Source: a virus (Duplodnaviria; Heunggongvirae; Uroviricota; Caudoviricetes). Taken from it: a DNA stretch of 7,885 nucleotides. The position numbers and the translations under genes were made by a program. The stretch lies in the IMG/VR virus record IMGVR_UViG_2693429508_000009. One strand, given 5' to 3'. The notes beneath the pieces were generated by a model. The model saw only the letters and a list, made by a program, of their open reading frames with translations, was not told the DNA's origin and ran no database searches. Positions 850 through 7,885 of the stretch are shown piece after piece. Numbering within the stretch: the first letter of the stretch is position 1; the number at the start of each line of letters is the position of its first letter.

Positions 850-1060
850 AAACGGTTTGCGGGAAAAGGAGAGTTAAGTAGAATTGCAGCGGGTGCTTGA
901 GGCTATCTGTCTCAGGCATGAACACCAAAAGGCAGATAGAGAAAAGCCCCAGTTAACATTACGCGTCCGGCAAGACGCTTAACATTAATCTGAGGCTCAA
1001 TCTATGAACGGCAAATCTAGGTTAGCCTCTTACGTGCCGAAAGGCAAGGAGAAGCAGGCT

Positions 1061-1216
1061 ATGAAGCAGCAAAAGGCGATGTTAATCGCCCTGATCGTCA
1101 TCTGTTTAACCGTCATAGTGACGGCACTGGTAACGAGGAAAGACCTCTGCGAGGTACGAATTCGAACCGGCCAGACGGAGGTCGCTGTCTTCACAGCTTA
1201 CGAACCTGAGGAGTAA
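1061..1216 (+). CDS. hokD: Hok/Gef-family type I toxin (51 aa small membrane toxin)
   Basis: Translation MKQQKAMLIALIVICLTVIVTALVTRKDLCEVRIRTGQTEVAVFTAYEPEE has the Hok/Gef hallmarks: N-terminal TM helix, TRK(D/S)LCE motif, conserved C-terminal region. It matches my recollection of E. coli HokD/RelF. SD GGAG at 1048-1051. An in-frame upstream ATG at 1004, also with a GAGG SD, would give the 70-aa ORF in the track. Family call is firm; exact paralogue is from memory. Confidence 0.85.
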   Translation: MKQQKAMLIALIVICLTVIVTALVTRKDLCEVRIRTGQTEVAVFTAYEPEE

Positions 1217-3102: not shown

Positions 3103-3483
3103 ATGACCGAGCGCATAGAATTTGTTTTACCTTACCCGCCGACGGTGAACACTTACTGGCGTCGTCGTGGCAGCACATATTTTGTATCAAAAGCCGGGGA
3201 GCGTTATCGCCGGGCAGTGGCGCTTATTGTTCGCCAGCAGCGGCTGAAATTAAGCCTGTCCGGAAGGTTGGCAATAAAAATTATTGCAGAACCACCGGAT
3301 AAGCGCCGCCGTGACCTGGACAATATTCTGAAAGCGCCGCTGGATGCGCTGACGCATGCGGGGTTGCTAATGGACGATGAGCAGTTTGATGAAATCAATA
3401 TCGTTCGTGCTCAGCCAGTATCTGGTGGACGTCTGGGGGTGAAGATTTATCCCATAATGCTTGAAGGGCAGGTCAAAAAATGA
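3103..3483 (+). CDS. rusA: Holliday junction resolvase RusA (copy 1, 126 aa)
   Basis: Translation shows RusA hallmarks: LPYPPTVNTYWRRR near the N-terminus, the acidic RRRDLDN motif, LMDDEQF and GGRLGV. Stop TGA 3481-3483 overlaps the ATG 3480 of a Q-like start. Confidence 0.9.
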   Translation: MTERIEFVLPYPPTVNTYWRRRGSTYFVSKAGERYRRAVALIVRQQRLKLSLSGRLAIKIIAEPPDKRRRDLDNILKAPLDALTHAGLLMDDEQFDEINIVRAQPVSGGRLGVKIYPIMLEGQVKK

Positions 3484-3623
3484 AACTGGAAGATTTACCG
3501 AAATACTACTCCCCAAAATCCCCCGGCCTGACTGATGCATCGGCCTCAACGTCGAAAGATGCGCTGAGTATCACTGATGTGATGGCCGCGCAGGGCATGA
3601 CACAGAATCGGGCTGAGATGGGG
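3480..3623 (+). pseudogene. 5' fragment (48 codons) of a Q-like antiterminator gene, truncated at the single N at 3624; probably a contig end, not a biological truncation
   Basis: MKLEDLPKYYSPKSPGLTDASASTSKDALSITDVMAAQGMTQNRAEMG matches the N-terminus of the complete Q ORF at 4433-5287 with only a few substitutions. The sequence after the N (3625 onward) is unrelated. Confidence 0.6.
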
Positions 3624-3632
3624 NATTAAGAC

Positions 3633-3804: not shown

Positions 3805-4062
3805 TTGAACAACCAGACAATGACTTTTACCCCTGAACAATTGCGTAAACACGCGCAGGAAATGCTGCGTCATGCTGAACAACTCGAAAAAACGGGCATA
3901 ACAAAAGACGCTATCCGTAAAGATATGGTACCCGCGCTTCGGGAACTGATGCAGGCGAAGCATCGCGCACAGAAAGCAGTAGATGAGCTGGTGGACTGTG
4001 TGGCAGAGCTGGAAACCAGAGTCGGAAAGTTTGAAAAACTGGTGCAGGAGGTGCTGCGCTGA
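3805..4062 (+). CDS. hypothetical phage protein (85 aa from TTG 3805; 80 aa if ATG 3820), likely helical
   Basis: GGAG at 3793-3796 is 8 nt upstream of TTG 3805. Stop TGA 4060-4062 overlaps ATG 4062 of rusA copy 2 (TGATG coupling). Charged, heptad-like composition. Confidence 0.5.
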   Translation: MNNQTMTFTPEQLRKHAQEMLRHAEQLEKTGITKDAIRKDMVPALRELMQAKHRAQKAVDELVDCVAELETRVGKFEKLVQEVLR

Positions 4063-4436
4063 TGCGCCATGAGTTTATTTTACCTTATCCGCCGACGGTG
4101 AATACTTACTGGCGACGTCGTGACAACACATATTTTGTATCAAAAGCCGGTGAGCGTTATCGCCGGGATGTGGCGCTTATTGTCCGTCAGCAGCGACTGA
4201 AATTAAGCCTGTCCGGAAGACTGGCGATAAAGATTATTGCAGAGCCACCGGATAAGCGCCGTCGTGACCTGGACAATATCCTGAAAGCACCACTGGATGC
4301 ACTGACACATGCGGGAGTGTTAATGGACGATGAGCAGTTTGATGAAATCAATATCGTTCGTGGTCAGCCAGTATCTGGTGGACGTCTGGGGGTGAAGATT
4401 TACCCCATAATGCATGAAGAGCAGGTCAAAAAATGA
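4062..4436 (+). CDS. rusA: Holliday junction resolvase RusA (copy 2, 124 aa)
   Basis: Same RusA motifs as copy 1. By eye roughly 90 percent identical at protein level, with differences clustered at the N-terminus plus scattered substitutions. ATGA overlap with Q at 4433-4436. Confidence 0.9.
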   Translation: MRHEFILPYPPTVNTYWRRRDNTYFVSKAGERYRRDVALIVRQQRLKLSLSGRLAIKIIAEPPDKRRRDLDNILKAPLDALTHAGVLMDDEQFDEINIVRGQPVSGGRLGVKIYPIMHEEQVKK

Positions 4437-5287
4437 AACTGGAAGATTTACCGAAATACTACTCCCCAAAATCCCCTTGCCTGACCGATGCATCGGCCTC
4501 AACGTCAAAAGATGCGCTGAGTATCACTGATGTGATGGCCGCGCAGGGCATGACACAGAATCGGGCTGAGATGGGGGTTTCTGCGTTCCTTGGGAAAATG
4601 GGCATTAGTATGAATGACAGAGAGCGGGCAACAGAATTGCTGACAGAATATGCACTCAGTCGGTGTGATCGCGTGGCGGCGTTAAGAAAACTCCCGGCAG
4701 AAATAAAACCGGCAGTGATGCGTATTATGGCTTCGTATGCGTTTGAAGATTATGCCCGTAGCGCGGCGAGCAAAAAACAGTGCCCCTGCTGTCACGGAAA
4801 AAAATTTATTGAAAGCGAGGTTTTTACAAACAAGATCCAGTATCCGGATGGTAAGCCGCCGGTATGGGCAAAGTGTACGAAAGGTGTGTATCCGTCTTAC
4901 TGGGAAGAATGGAAAAAAGTCAGGGAGGTGGTAAAAGTTGCCTGTCCGGAGTGTGGCGGAAAGGGTGAGGTTTCCACCGCCTGTAAGGATTGCCGTGGGC
5001 GTGGTGTCGCCATTCATCGTGAAGAGTCGGTAAAACGTGGTATGCCTGTTATCAGAGACTGCCAGCGTTGTGGTGGTCGTGGCTATGAAAGACTACCATC
5101 AACGGAGGCATTTAATGCTATATGCGAGGTGACAAACCAGATAACACGCGCGTCATGGGAAAAAACAGTTAAGAAATTTTATGATGCGCTGGTGACCCGG
5201 TTTGATATTGAAGAAGCATGGGCTGAGCGGCAGTTAAAAAAGGTAACTAGGTTGATTTTTCCGGAATCTGTGGTAAATTCGTCATAA
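4433..5287 (+). CDS. Q: late-gene antiterminator Q (lambdoid Q family) with a DnaJ-like cysteine-rich zinc-finger region
   Basis: Positioned directly after rusA and directly before a pR'-like promoter, a terminator and phage tRNAs. N-terminus MKLEDLPKYYSPKSP resembles E. coli prophage Q-like proteins as I recall them. Contains three perfect CxxCxGxG repeats (CPECGGKG, CKDCRGRG, CQRCGGRG) and one degenerate repeat (CPCCHGKK). Confidence 0.75.
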   Translation: MKLEDLPKYYSPKSPCLTDASASTSKDALSITDVMAAQGMTQNRAEMGVSAFLGKMGISMNDRERATELLTEYALSRCDRVAALRKLPAEIKPAVMRIMASYAFEDYARSAASKKQCPCCHGKKFIESEVFTNKIQYPDGKPPVWAKCTKGVYPSYWEEWKKVREVVKVACPECGGKGEVSTACKDCRGRGVAIHREESVKRGMPVIRDCQRCGGRGYERLPSTEAFNAICEVTNQITRASWEKTVKKFYDALVTRFDIEEAWAERQLKKVTRLIFPESVVNSS

Positions 5288-5389: not shown

Positions 5390-5465
5390 GGCCCTTTAGC
5401 TCAGTGGTGAGAGCGAGCGACTCATAATCGCCAGGTCGCTGGTTCAAATCCAGCAAGGGCCACCA
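5390..5465 (+). tRNA. ileZ: tRNA-Ile (anticodon CAU; presumably lysidine-modified, reads AUA)
   Basis: 76 nt. 7-bp acceptor stem GGCCCTT/AAGGGCC, D-arm AGCTCAGTGGTGAGAGC, anticodon loop CTCATAA, T-arm GGTTCAAATCC, discriminator A plus encoded CCA. Very close to E. coli tRNA-Ile2 (ileX) as recalled. The symbol follows the Stx-phage convention and is not verified. Confidence 0.9.
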
Positions 5466-5752: not shown

Positions 5753-6106
5753 TTGATTGAGTGTTTGTTATACGGTCTAATGGTTTTTTCAGCATTAAAT
5801 ATTTATCATTCATATGGTGTGGGTAGAGTGAATATTGATGAGGCGTCGGGGTGTTTCATCCTTAGGCAGCGTATTGATATAGTCAATGCAGCACGAGCAA
5901 AGGCCTTCAGCCGTTTGACAGTTTTGTTCTGTACTCCTGATCGTCTTTCGGGAAGAGACGTTATTATTCTGAATAGTGATGCTATACAGAGGGTTTGCGA
6001 TGAGTTCATGGTTGCTAATTCAGAATTATTTGCTCTTGTTCAGGAGTACAACAGAATAGCCAGGACCTGTGGTATGGATGAACTTCGGATTACTCATCTG
6101 GGGTAG
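5753..6106 (+). CDS. hypothetical ORF (117 aa from TTG; no convincing SD), possibly a gene remnant in the stx-equivalent cargo slot
   Basis: ORF-track ORF; its 5' part is AT-rich and lacks a ribosome-binding site, while the C-terminal two-thirds has protein-like composition. No family recognised and no resemblance to Stx A or B subunits. Confidence 0.3.
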   Translation: MIECLLYGLMVFSALNIYHSYGVGRVNIDEASGCFILRQRIDIVNAARAKAFSRLTVLFCTPDRLSGRDVIILNSDAIQRVCDEFMVANSELFALVQEYNRIARTCGMDELRITHLG

Positions 6107-6291
6107 ATACATATCTGGATTATCACCTGTTACGGTAAAAAGTGATTGCTTACTGTTTTTGTGAATGGCATTGCAGCAGCCGGATAATGTCAGTGCTGGC
6201 TGACGGTGTGCTGGTGGCGGGTGTGGTGGTTGTTGCTTTCCCGTTGCTGAAAAAGAAAACGCCAGACTGTTAGCCGGGTATCAGTTAGCGG
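6034..6291. repeat. 258-bp exact direct repeat, copy A (ends at the N gap)
   Basis: Identical by eye to 6612-6869; copy A runs into the N run at 6292 and copy B starts right after the 5-N run. This is the pattern of unmerged contig-end overlap in a scaffold. Confidence 0.85.
6187..6273 (+). CDS. possible 28-aa hydrophobic peptide (MSVLADGVLVAGVVVVAFPLLKKKTPDC); a second identical copy at 6765-6851 lies within repeat copy B
   Basis: ATG 6187 to TAG 6271-6273. Hydrophobic core followed by a KKK cluster (single-TM-like). Weak or absent SD; too short for statistical support. Confidence 0.2.
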   Translation: MSVLADGVLVAGVVVVAFPLLKKKTPDC

Positions 6292-6503
6292 NNNNNNNNN
6301 NNNNNNNNNNNNNNNNNNNNNNNNNNNNNNNNNNNNNNNNNNNNNNNNNNNNNNNNNNNNNNNNNNNNNNNNNNNNNNNNNNNNNNNNNNNNNNNNNNNN
6401 NNNNNNNNNNNNNNNNNNNNNNNNNNNNNNNNNNNNNNNNNNNNNNNNNNNNNNNNNNNNNNNNNNNNNNNNNNNNNNNNNNNNNNNNNNNNNNNNNNNN
6501 NNN
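6292..6503. other. assembly gap (run of N); single N at 3624 and 5 N at 6607-6611 are further joins
   Basis: Unresolved bases in the sequence itself. Confidence 0.95.
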
Positions 6504-6577: not shown

Positions 6578-6611
6578 TCACATACCGCCATTAGCTCATC
6601 AGGAAANNNNN

Positions 6612-6869
6612 TCTTGTTCAGGAGTACAACAGAATAGCCAGGACCTGTGGTATGGATGAACTTCGGATTACTCATCTGGGGTAGATACATATCTGGATTA
6701 TCACCTGTTACGGTAAAAAGTGATTGCTTACTGTTTTTGTGAATGGCATTGCAGCAGCCGGATAATGTCAGTGCTGGCTGACGGTGTGCTGGTGGCGGGT
6801 GTGGTGGTTGTTGCTTTCCCGTTGCTGAAAAAGAAAACGCCAGACTGTTAGCCGGGTATCAGTTAGCGG
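6612..6869. repeat. 258-bp exact direct repeat, copy B
   Basis: Identical to 6034-6291; unique sequence resumes at 6870. Confidence 0.85.
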
Positions 6870-7076
6870 GAGAAATTTTTAAATACTTCACAATTCAGGC
6901 GGTTGACTGTTGTCTGGTTTGCGGGGAGTTTGTTAAAAGAAACTGGCATGGTGAATCCCCCTGTGCGGAGGGGCAATCAGCGAGTAGGTATATGGGATAA
7001 TCGCGGATTCAGGTGCTGGTACTGAATTCACCGGGAGGCACCCGGCACCATGCAATGGCACATAGCGCCACTCTCC

Positions 7077-7111
7077 AGCCCCTCTCCGGAGGGGCTGTTT
7101 ATATTGATTTT
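7077..7111 (+). terminator. stem-loop with U-rich tail (probable + strand terminator closing the tRNA/cargo transcript)
   Basis: AGCCCCT (7077-7083), loop CTCCGG, AGGGGCT (7090-7096), followed by GTTTATATTGATTTT. Confidence 0.5.
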
Positions 7112-7131
7112 GTCAGATGTGAGTAAACTCC

Positions 7132-7467
7132 TTATGGACTTTGTTGTTTTAGTCCATAAGGACATATTTGCAGAGTGCAACGGTTATTAAAGCATTCATT
7201 CAATACGTTATCTGTATTTGTAGGGCATTCCTGGCTGTTTTTGATTAAATTCCAGAATGTTTTATTGAATGGTACTACGTTGTAAATGGTTACAGGTAGC
7301 ACTTTGTTATTGAGCATGATGCCTGTGTGAGTCAGTGTAAATATACTTTCAGGAGGTAAGAAAGCATCCGATTGATACCAGATTATTAATTTTATTTTAC
7401 TCCATATGACTGAAAAAGATATTCCGCATGATGGCTGGATAACTGTATCAATCACAATCCACTTCAT
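7132..7467 (-). CDS. hypothetical 111-aa protein encoded in AT-rich DNA (moron-like); five Cys, four of them in the C-terminal third
   Basis: Minus-strand ORF with SD AAGGA 6 nt upstream of its ATG (plus 7465-7467). AT-rich DNA is stop-codon-rich, so a 111-codon ORF here is unlikely by chance. A 270-bp AT-rich upstream region (7468-7727) and hairpins at its 3' end (7130-7161) fit an autonomous transcription unit. Family not recognised. Confidence 0.4.
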
Positions 7468-7727
7468 TTAGTTTCCTTGTTTATGCCTTGCTGGTGATGT
7501 TCTGAAAAGTATAAATGATATTTTTGAATGTAAACCATAGAGCAGAATTATTTTTCTGATGTTGTTTATTGTTTATTTAAATGCAGGGTGGTTTATATCT
7601 CGTCTTGTAGTTTATCCATGCATATCTGCTTGATAATCAGGTTTTTATTTAAGGTATGGTTTTGTGTTTTTTCTGTATTACATGTCAGGTATTTTAAAGA
7701 ATTATTTTTCAGATGGTGGAAAGAACC

Positions 7728-7885
7728 ATGGCATTTAAACACTATGATGTTGTCAGGGCGGCGCCGCCGTCAGATCTTGCGGAAAAGCTGACACATAAAC
7801 TGAAAGAGGGCTGGCAGCCGTTTGGTAGTCCGGTGGCCATAACCCCTTATACCCTGAGGTGTACTGGCAATAGCGGACACTACCA
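7728..7885 (+). CDS. 5' end of a phage protein of unknown function (MAFKHYDVVRAAPPSDLAEKLTHKLKEGWQPFGSPVAITPYTL...), runs off the window
   Basis: ATG 7728 with GGTGGA 8 nt upstream; frame open to the window end (52 codons); normal-GC composition resumes here. Resembles small conserved proteins found near lysis cassettes in E. coli prophages, from memory only. Confidence 0.55.
   Translation, partial: MAFKHYDVVRAAPPSDLAEKLTHKLKEGWQPFGSPVAITPYTLRCTGNSGHY
7855..7885. repeat. right copy of the 31-bp inverted repeat (partner 21-51)
   Basis: See partner entry; this copy lies inside the coding sequence of the gene starting at 7728. Confidence 0.9.

What the first reader, a model, noticed from the sequence alone, without database searches (positions are those of the whole stretch)
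7077..7737. Moron-like unit: a minus-strand 111-aa ORF in very AT-rich DNA, bracketed by hairpins
The 7132-7467 minus-strand ORF has a good SD and a 270-bp AT-rich upstream region shared with the divergent + strand gene at 7728. At its 3' end there is a perfect 11-bp stem (CCTTATGGACT / AGTCCATAAGG, 7130-7161) that overlaps its last codons, and further out the GC-rich hairpin at 7077-7096. The sharp composition shift against flanking phage genes, plus its own promoter and terminator, is the signature of a horizontally inserted moron. The product has five cysteines, four of them in the C-terminal third, and no recognisable family.
Basis: seen in the sequence. Interest (0 to 1): 0.55.

Follow-up and report, generated by a model that had tools for sequence, protein, structure and literature searches.

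The report
Prophage-borne iraL, a known RpoS stabiliser
The 111-aa minus-strand ORF is iraL, an already characterised prophage gene whose product blocks the adaptor RssB so that the stress sigma factor RpoS escapes ClpXP degradation; the finding is real but ordinary.

Summary
There is an intact 111-aa ORF (7132-7467, minus) with a Shine-Dalgarno site. It lies in a 630-bp AT-rich block (32% GC; flanking genes about 48-55%). A perfect 12-bp hairpin covers its stop codon, and a GC-rich hairpin lies further out. The claim of "no recognisable family" is wrong. The protein is 111/111 identical to IraL of uropathogenic E. coli CFT073. It scores 162 bits against the NCBIfam IraM model (cutoff 121) and matches the solved IraM structure 8TWD. 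IraL is an experimentally characterised RssB anti-adaptor that stabilises RpoS in log phase. Its 5'-RACE transcript start maps to window position 7500. "Moron-like" is a fair description: own promoter, foreign composition, and an unrelated 231 bp in its place in an Stx2a phage. The GC-rich hairpin, however, is the terminator of the convergent plus-strand sRNA STnc100 (6917-7106). The 12-bp hairpin is specific to this allele and has no covariation support. Two untested leftovers remain. The four C-terminal cysteines are among the most conserved residues of the whole IraM family. A PhoP-box-like repeat sits upstream of the promoter. Verdict: already known, low interest.

The parts
7132..7467 (-). 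iraL coding sequence (111 aa plus stop): RssB anti-adaptor of the IraM family
7468..7500 (-). iraL 5' UTR (33 nt) from the transcript start at 7500, with Shine-Dalgarno AAGGAAA at 7478-7472
   Evidence: The 5'-RACE sequence ACATCACCAGCAAGGCATAAACAAGGAAACCA published for CFT073 (PMC4045071) matches the window minus strand 7500-7469 at 31 of 32 positions. The one difference is a strain SNP visible in the alignment.
7508..7534 (-). iraL sigma-70-type core promoter: -35 TTTACA (7534-7529), 15-nt spacer, -10 TATACT (7513-7508)
   Evidence: Read from the sequence, placed relative to the published transcript start. Identical to CFT073 in both hexamers. The consensus scan missed it because it only accepts 16-18 nt spacers. 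The exact hexamers are my inference; the paper's figure is not held.
7563..7579 (+). PhoP-box-like direct repeat TGTTTA-TTGTT-TATTTA, -63 to -79 from the iraL start, in reverse orientation (untested lead)
   Evidence: One mismatch to KGTTTA-N5-KGTTTA. Expected 0.17 per window; 32 of 200 shuffles have at least one. The homologous position is a perfect box in an Stx-phage allele (L007 2888-2904) and a one-mismatch box in the Stx2c-type allele. It is deleted in another allele.
7129..7162 (-). Perfect 12-bp hairpin with a 10-nt loop, covering the codons PYGLKQQSP and the stop. Possible 3'-end stabiliser; function unproven
   Evidence: -17.5 kcal/mol, z = -5.2. Degraded to -9.1 and -4.8 kcal/mol in alleles that are 76% and 89% identical to IraL in protein sequence, with no compensatory changes. 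No U-tract follows it on the minus strand.
6917..7106 (+). STnc100-family prophage sRNA, convergent with iraL. Its Rho-independent terminator is the GC-rich hairpin 7076-7097 followed by a T-tract
   Evidence: Rfam RF02076, 132.4 bits (gathering 47), full-length model match. Plus-strand terminator call.
7097..7726 (.). AT-rich iraL cassette (32.2% GC), the segment that is present or absent between the STnc100 terminator and the DUF1737/nanS-p start codon
   Evidence: Composition. BLAST against Stx2a phage LC645409 matches only 6888-7096 and 7727-7835, with 231 unrelated bases between. The whole block is present at >=95% identity in 1432 of 5426 complete E. coli genomes.
7728..7857 (+). 5' part of a DUF1737 / nanS-p-type late gene, divergent from iraL and cut at 7858 by the end of an IS600 copy (7858-7885)
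   Evidence: Pfam PF08410 E = 9e-16. The window departs from CFT073 and phage 640R1 after 7857. The last 28 nt are multi-copy in E. coli genomes and abut an IS600 transposase gene.

Best explanation
The unit is iraL, a lysogenic-conversion (moron-type) gene carried antisense in the late region of a lambdoid prophage.

Shown elsewhere for the identical protein: IraL binds RssB, the response-regulator-like adaptor that delivers sigma-S (RpoS) to the ClpXP protease, through RssB's N-terminal receiver domain. This blocks delivery, so RpoS is stabilised during logarithmic growth.

Shown here: the protein is identical to CFT073 IraL, it belongs to the IraM family and has the IraM fold, the published transcript start and core promoter are present, and the cassette has a foreign composition and is present or absent among related phages.

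Inferred: the gene is expressed in this strain's lysogen from its own sigma-70 promoter (-35 TTTACA, 15 nt, -10 TATACT, start at 7500). Q-dependent late transcription of the plus strand would run antisense across it on induction. Its transcript ends somewhere in or after the 12-bp hairpin, facing the terminator of the convergent sRNA STnc100.
For: Identity and family:
- 111/111 aa identity to CFT073 C_RS06710 (c1429), in the same synteny: Q, tRNAs, DUF3927, iraL, DUF1737, holin, lysozyme.
- 99.6% DNA identity over 6851-7857.
- NCBIfam IraM 162 bits, above the 121 cutoff.
- PDB 8TWD IraM E = 9e-32 over residues 1-78.
- 62% identity to K-12 IraM.

RssB contact residues of IraM compared with IraL:
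- Cluster I (I4, I6, W22, K26, I42): all identical.
- Cluster II: C14, F18, W30 identical; T13S and L75I conservative.
- Cluster III: I61, Y62 identical; H63N and I64V changed.

Published function (PMC4045071):
- 5'-RACE transcript start.
- Deleting iraL lowers RpoS level and halves its half-life in log phase, in CFT073 and in S. sonnei.
- iraL with its native promoter raises RpoS in K-12.
- IraL copurifies with RssB and, in two-hybrid assays, binds only the RssB N-terminal domain.
- RNA-seq evidence of transcription (PMC12890032) and raised IraL levels in a fur mutant (PMC7157518).

Cassette nature: GC 32% against about 50%, and the indel relative to an Stx2a phage.
Against: - Nothing was measured in the strain this window comes from.
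- Two SNPs separate it from CFT073 near the start site: position -1 (7501) and one in the 5' UTR. Their effect is unknown.
- The 15-nt spacer is suboptimal for a sigma-70 promoter.
- The prophage looks degraded or poorly assembled: IS600 in the neighbouring gene, N gaps, duplicated segments. Prophage context effects could therefore differ.
- The terminator of iraL is not identified.
Confidence: 0.95

Rival explanations
1. One reading: an orphan moron encoding a cysteine-rich protein with no recognisable family and unknown function.
For: Pfam-A gives no hit, even at E <= 10. PHROGs places it in phrog_4407, "unknown function".
Against: NCBIfam IraM is above its cutoff. There is a match to a solved IraM structure. 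The protein is 100% identical to the experimentally characterised IraL (PMC4045071). K-12 IraM itself also gets no Pfam hit in this library, so the Pfam silence says nothing.
Confidence: 0.02
2. Same protein, different regulation. Like K-12 iraM, this gene is mainly a PhoP/PhoQ (low Mg2+) output acting through the upstream PhoP-box-like repeat, rather than a constitutive log-phase gene.
For: IraM is induced through PhoP/PhoQ (review PMC10948607). A repeat with one mismatch to the PhoP box lies at 7563-7579, which is -63 to -79. The homologous site is a perfect box in one Stx-phage allele and a one-mismatch box in the Stx2c-type allele. The published complementing fragment (-100 to +33) includes it.
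Against: The match is not significant on its own: 32 of 200 shuffles reach it, and the region is T-rich. The three sites are homologous, so they are not independent evidence. One allele has lost the repeat but keeps the core promoter. IraL acts in LB log phase without Mg2+ limitation. The IraL paper mentions PhoP only in its reference list and reports no PhoP or Mg2+ experiment.
Confidence: 0.2
3. The two hairpins are the gene's own tandem transcription terminators.
For: Both lie 3' of the stop codon on the iraL transcript and fold very stably (-43.7 kcal/mol for 7060-7180, z = -5.9). Reading through from iraL would meet them in turn.
Against: On the minus strand neither stem is followed by a U-tract. 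The terminator scan reports the GC hairpin only on the plus strand, and it is the terminal stem of the STnc100 covariance model. The 12-bp stem weakens to -9.1 and -4.8 kcal/mol in diverged iraL-type alleles through synonymous changes, without compensation. It is absent in the Stx2c-type allele and in K-12 iraM.
Confidence: 0.25
4. A PmrD-type connector that protects phospho-PmrA, rather than an RssB anti-adaptor.
Against: Only 14-19% identity to PmrD, against 65% to IraM over the same residues. The identical protein binds RssB and stabilises RpoS.
Confidence: 0.02

Closest known systems
IraL of uropathogenic E. coli CFT073 (c1429; Hryckowian et al. 2014, mBio, PMC4045071)
   Same: Identical protein, 111/111. 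Same prophage slot and neighbours. Same -35 and -10 hexamers and transcript start. 99.6% DNA identity over about 1 kb.
   Different: Two SNPs next to or within the 5' UTR. Here the downstream DUF1737 gene is cut by IS600. The source strain is unknown.
IraM (YcgW) of E. coli K-12, the Mg2+-starvation / PhoPQ-dependent RssB anti-adaptor (PDB 8TWD)
   Same: Same family and fold. 62% identity. Cluster I RssB-contact residues are identical. Same four C-terminal cysteines and the ICPYG motif.
   Different: Only about 71% DNA identity, confined to the coding sequence, with unrelated flanks next to e14. IraL has a 4-residue extension (QQSP), consistent with a TAA to CAA change at the IraM-type stop. 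IraL is reported to bind only the RssB N-terminal domain and to act in log phase.
IraM-family genes of Stx2/Stx2c-converting phages (e.g. phage 2851, O157:H7 Stx2c prophage)
   Same: Same orientation and same slot, between an STnc100-like sRNA terminator and nanS-p/DUF1737. Homologous promoter region. 75-76% protein identity.
   Different: They lie immediately downstream of stxB. The Stx2c type lacks the QQSP extension and the 12-bp hairpin. Function is untested as far as I could find.
PmrD (PhoP-activated connector protein that binds phospho-PmrA)
   Different: 14-19% identity, a different partner (PmrA, not RssB), and no Cys4 C-terminal tail.
Classical lambdoid morons (bor, lom, stx)
   Same: An accessory gene in a prophage with its own promoter, deviant composition, and presence or absence among relatives. 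It occupies the same late-region slot as stx.
   Different: It is transcribed against the late operon, and its terminator is not defined.

Membership tests
IraM/IraL/RssC family of RssB anti-adaptors | Sequence match to the curated family model above its cutoff | tested here: met
   NCBIfam NF007393, 162 bits against a cutoff of 121, residues 1-110 of 111.
IraM/IraL/RssC family of RssB anti-adaptors | PmrD-like antiparallel beta-barrel plus helix fold of residues 1-78 | tested here: met
   [not shown]
IraM/IraL/RssC family of RssB anti-adaptors | Conservation of the IraM residues that contact RssB in the crystal structure (clusters I-III) | tested here: met
   Cluster I: 5 of 5 identical. Cluster II: 3 of 5 identical plus 2 conservative changes. 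Cluster III: 2 of 4 identical. Residue list, alignment.
IraM/IraL/RssC family of RssB anti-adaptors | Physical binding to RssB and stabilisation of RpoS against ClpXP | not testable with these tools
   Published for the identical protein: copurification, two-hybrid, and RpoS half-life of about 5 min against about 2.5 min in the deletion mutant (PMC4045071).
IraL allele (as opposed to IraM proper) | Identity to CFT073 IraL, its promoter and its genomic context | tested here: met
   111/111 aa. Promoter and 5' UTR match the 5'-RACE sequence at 31 of 32 positions. Same prophage synteny.
Prophage moron | Accessory gene inside a prophage, present or absent among related phages at the same site | tested here: met
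   Lambdoid late region. An Stx2a phage keeps both flanks with an unrelated 231 bp in place of 7097-7726. Only 4 of 251 matching phage records carry the full block.
Prophage moron | Nucleotide composition distinct from neighbouring phage genes | tested here: met
   Cassette GC 32.2% and iraL GC3 33.9%, against 48-55% in Q, STnc100, DUF3927 and DUF1737.
Prophage moron | Own promoter | tested here: met
   The published 5'-RACE start and the -35 and -10 hexamers are present in the window. Activity in this strain was not measured.
Prophage moron | Own terminator | tested here: inconclusive
   The 12-bp hairpin lacks a U-tract and is not conserved in diverged alleles. The GC hairpin belongs to STnc100 on the other strand.
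STnc100 sRNA (Rfam RF02076), the neighbour that owns the outer hairpin | Covariance-model score above the gathering threshold, over the full length | tested here: met
   132.4 bits against 47, model positions 1-206 of 206.

The most novel reading that the evidence does not exclude
This module could control the stability or activity of IraL/IraM-type anti-adaptors, rather than being a dispensable flexible tail.

- They are invariant or nearly so in 33 representatives from Salmonella, Citrobacter, Enterobacter, Klebsiella, Kosakonia and others. These share only 20-41% identity with IraL, apart from one E. coli IraM-type member at 63%.
- The tail is as conserved as the barrel: mean top-residue frequency 0.45 against 0.47.
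- With a diverse alignment, AF2 gives the tail a pLDDT of 72-78.
- The only solved structure removed residues 79-107 because full-length IraM was unstable, and described the tail as less conserved and flexible.
- The structure paper and its preprint do not mention cysteines or IraM-bound zinc, and a library search for IraM, RssB and zinc turned up no title pointing to it.

A second, weaker lead is that prophage iraL/iraM alleles, including those next to stx2, keep a PhoP box and so tie RpoS stability to PhoPQ signalling.
Probability: 0.35. Interest if true: 0.4.

Novelty: already known. Interest (0 to 1): 0.1.

Why it matters
As it stands this is a re-discovery. iraL is a published gene that helps explain why many pathogenic E. 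coli and Shigella hold high RpoS levels in log phase.

The practical value is corrective:
- PHROGs still lists the family as "unknown function".
- Pfam gives no hit.
- Many Stx2/Stx2c phage records leave the homologue unannotated.

A sequence-only reader, or a phage annotation pipeline, will therefore keep flagging it as an orphan.

If the side observations hold, they would add a regulatory handle to a well-studied proteolysis switch. These are a conserved Cys4 tail and a PhoP-box-like site, with IraM-family genes sitting next to stx2. They would link Stx-phage carriage to the host general stress response.

Tried and rejected
- Pfam-A scans of the ORF found nothing at E <= 0.01 or at E <= 10. 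K-12 IraM also found nothing. The library is simply blind here, although precomputed tables list PF11183 for relatives.
- PHROGs gave only "unknown function".
- The consensus promoter scan did not report the mapped promoter, because its spacer is 15 nt. It reported two other weak sites, no more than expected by chance.
- The first AF2 run used 16 close homologues and was poor (pLDDT 54.8, tail below 50). It was superseded by the 33-sequence run.
- Model coordinates are not exposed, so Cys-Cys distances could not be measured.
- I looked for covariation support for the 12-bp hairpin in diverged alleles and found none; the stem simply decays.
- I looked for a remnant of the cassette in the Stx2a-phage "empty" site. 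Only short matches of 9-21 nt with weak statistics appeared, so I treated them as chance.
- Bougdour et al. 2008 could not be read. PhoP dependence of iraM is cited from a review instead.
- A literature search for IraM with Stx2c found nothing.
- I rejected a hidden plus-strand gene. The plus-strand ORFs here (7050-7190, 7588-7791) overlap the sRNA or the DUF1737 start out of frame, and they are not annotated in CFT073.

Full report
**What the window is.** The window is the late-regulatory region of a lambdoid prophage from a scaffolded draft assembly.
- hok/sok lies at 891-1216 (Rfam sok, 112 bits).
- A DUF968-type gene is followed by two copies of rusA and a Q antiterminator at 4433-5287 (Pfam Antiterm, E = 2e-53).
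- tRNA genes lie at 5390, 5566 and 6502.
- N runs are at 3624, 6292-6503 and 6607-6611.
- The flagged region follows.
- The same gene order is present, gap-free, in the potB prophage of E. coli CFT073: Q, tRNA-Ile/Arg/Arg, DUF3927, an "anti-adapter protein IraM" gene on the opposite strand, DUF1737, holin, lysozyme. It is also present in the phage record vB_EcoS-640R1.

**Checking the observation.**
- The ORF 7132-7467 (-) is 111 aa with an ATG start. AAGGAAA (7478-7472) precedes it.
- The ORF is 34.5% GC (GC3 33.9%), its 260-bp upstream region is 29.6% GC, and the 630-bp block 7097-7726 is 32.2% GC. By comparison Q is 48%, DUF3927 51%, DUF1737 52% and the adjacent sRNA 55%.
- The inverted repeat over the stop codon is a perfect 12-bp stem (7129-7140 / 7151-7162) with a 10-nt loop. 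It folds at -17.5 kcal/mol, z = -5.2.
- The GC-rich hairpin is a 9-bp stem at 7076-7097.
- The product has five cysteines, four of them at positions 81, 92, 97 and 102.

Three points are wrong.
- Both hairpins lie on the 3' side of the ORF, so the unit is not "bracketed".
- The GC hairpin carries its T-tract on the plus strand. It is the terminal stem-loop of a full-length Rfam match to the prophage sRNA STnc100 (6917-7106, +; 132 bits against a gathering score of 47). It therefore belongs to the convergent neighbour.
- The protein does have a family.

**What it is.**
- The ORF scores 162 bits against NCBIfam NF007393, "anti-adapter protein IraM" (cutoff 121).
- It matches the crystallised IraM fragment in PDB 8TWD at E = 9e-32 over residues 1-78.
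- It is 111/111 identical to the CFT073 protein C_RS06710. DNA is 99.6% identical to CFT073 over 6851-7857.
- That CFT073 gene (c1429) is iraL, described by Hryckowian et al. 2014 (PMC4045071).
- The paper's 5'-RACE sequence, ACATCACCAGCAAGGCATAAACAAGGAAACCA, is the window's minus strand from 7500 to 7469 with one difference. That difference is a strain SNP visible in the alignment with CFT073.
- This places the transcript start at 7500 and gives a 33-nt 5' UTR. Upstream lie TATACT (7513-7508) and TTTACA (7534-7529), separated by 15 nt. Both hexamers are identical to CFT073.
- The consensus scan missed this promoter only because it requires 16-18 nt spacers.

**How it works.** The biochemistry is published for the identical protein, not shown here.
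- IraL copurifies with RssB. In two-hybrid assays it binds only RssB's N-terminal receiver domain, whereas IraM is reported to bind both domains.
- Deleting iraL lowers RpoS and halves its half-life in log phase in CFT073, and lowers RpoS in Shigella sonnei. iraL with its native promoter (-100 to +33) raises log-phase RpoS in K-12.
- The IraM-RssB crystal structure shows the mechanism for the family. The anti-adaptor bridges both RssB domains, remodels the helical linker, and occludes the alpha4-beta5-alpha5 face that sigma-S needs.
- IraL keeps all five cluster I contact residues (I4, I6, W22, K26, I42), three of five in cluster II and two of four in cluster III.
- Transcription in lysogens is documented by 5' RACE and RNA-seq. 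Raised IraL levels are reported in a fur mutant.

**Is it a moron?** In architecture, yes.
- The block 7097-7726 has foreign composition.
- It carries its own mapped promoter.
- It is transcribed against the Q-dependent late operon.
- It is a clean presence/absence polymorphism. An Stx2a phage (LC645409) matches the window at 6888-7096 (STnc100-like) and 7727-7835 (start of the DUF1737/nanS-p gene), with 231 unrelated, GC-rich bases between.
- Only 4 of 251 matching phage records carry the full block. By contrast, 1432 of 5426 complete E. coli genomes do, at >=95% identity.
- K-12 iraM shares only the coding sequence (about 71% DNA identity), in unrelated flanks beside e14.

The "own terminator" part is not established.
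- Neither stem is followed by a U-tract on the minus strand.
- The 12-bp stem is allele-specific. In two diverged iraL-type alleles (76% and 89% protein identity), synonymous changes in the Tyr and Gly codons break pairs without compensation. Stability falls to -9.1 and -4.8 kcal/mol, the latter at z = -0.3.
- The Stx2c-type allele and K-12 iraM lack the stem altogether.
- The same alignment shows where IraL's four extra residues come from. The IraM-type stop TAA is CAA in iraL, and translation runs on to the next TAA inside the 3' arm.

**Wider family and side observations.**
- A tblastn search finds IraM-family genes in 46 phage records. All but five are Stx2-, Stx2a- or Stx2c-converting or related E. 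coli phages, including 2851 and 1717. They are mostly unannotated or "hypothetical".
- In an O157:H7 Stx2c prophage the homologue (75% identical, 107 aa) lies directly between stx2B and nanS-p. A 76%-identical, 111-aa allele sits in the same place next to RIP/SLT_beta genes in three other assemblies.
- I found no paper linking IraM with Stx2c.
- An exhaustive profile search finds 93 representatives at E <= 0.001, 48 of them at E <= 1e-10. Those looked up come from Salmonella, Citrobacter, Enterobacter, Klebsiella, Kosakonia, Intestinirhabdus and Dryocola, and are annotated IraM.
- Across 33 full-length representatives (20-41% identical to IraL, apart from one E. coli IraM-type member at 63%), the invariant columns are M1, P12, W72, C81, C97 and C102. 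C92 and P103 are at 97%. Every sequence has the Cys-x(8-18)-Cys-x(4-5)-Cys-x4-Cys pattern. The tail is as conserved as the barrel, 0.45 against 0.47 mean top-residue frequency.
- The crystallographers removed residues 79-107 because full-length IraM was proteolysed and insoluble. They described the tail as less conserved and flexible. With a diverse alignment, AF2 gives the tail a pLDDT of 72-78 with short secondary-structure elements.
- A Cys4 metal or redox module is therefore a reasonable but untested reading. I could not measure Cys geometry because model coordinates are not exposed.
- A PhoP-box-like repeat (TGTTTA-N5-TATTTA, 7563-7579) lies at -63 to -79. It is not significant alone, since 32 of 200 shuffles reach it. 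The homologous site is a perfect box in one Stx-phage allele and a one-mismatch box in the Stx2c type, and it is deleted in another allele.
- IraM is a PhoP/PhoQ output. The IraL paper cites PhoP only in its reference list.

**Verdict.** It is iraL, the fourth RssB anti-adaptor of E. coli and Shigella, here in a prophage whose neighbouring DUF1737 gene is cut by an IS600 end at 7858. Interest is low. The only parts not already in the literature I could search are the family-wide Cys4 tail, the PhoP-box-like site, and the recurrent placement of IraM-family genes beside stx2. All three are leads, not findings.

Noticed in passing
window 7858-7885: The DUF1737/nanS-p-type gene departs from CFT073 and phage 640R1 after 7857. 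The last 28 nt are a multi-copy sequence in E. coli genomes (up to 43 places per genome, on chromosomes and plasmids) that abuts an IS600 (IS3-family) transposase gene. The window therefore ends inside an IS600 end that interrupts the late gene.
   Followed up: partly
[not shown]
   Followed up: partly
window 7135-7227 (IraL residues 81-111): The four C-terminal cysteines and the CP(Y/H)G motif are invariant or nearly so in 33 diverse Enterobacteriaceae family members. AF2 gives the tail a pLDDT of 72-78. The solved IraM structure omitted this tail and called it less conserved and flexible.
   Followed up: partly
window 7563-7579: PhoP-box-like direct repeat upstream of the iraL promoter. It is a perfect box at the homologous site of an Stx-phage allele (L007 2888-2904). 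Not statistically significant on its own.
   Followed up: partly
window 6917-7106 (+): Full-length STnc100-family prophage sRNA, convergent with iraL, with 25 nt between its 3' end and the iraL stop codon. Any iraL read-through would be antisense to it. In Stx2 phages a copy is reported 75 nt downstream of the stx2 operon. Phage 640R1 has a second, 74%-identical copy upstream.
   Followed up: no
window 3103-3629 vs 4062-4588; 6142-6273 vs 6720-6851; N runs at 3624, 6292-6503, 6607-6611: rusA plus the start of Q occurs twice, and a 43-aa DUF3927/TciB-like ORF occurs twice with identical translation. Both lie next to N runs, so this is probably scaffolding of repeated prophage segments rather than real tandem duplication.
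   Followed up: no
window 5753-6106 (+): A second AT-rich ORF (117 aa, GC 41%, GC3 37%) lies just after the tRNAs. It has a full-length match to PHROG 2873 (unknown function) and no Pfam or NCBIfam hit. It may be another accessory gene in the same slot.
   Followed up: no
window 891-1216: hok/sok-type toxin-antitoxin locus: Rfam sok at 112 bits, overlapping a 70-aa ORF (1004-1216) whose counterpart in phage 640R1 is annotated host killer protein.
   Followed up: no
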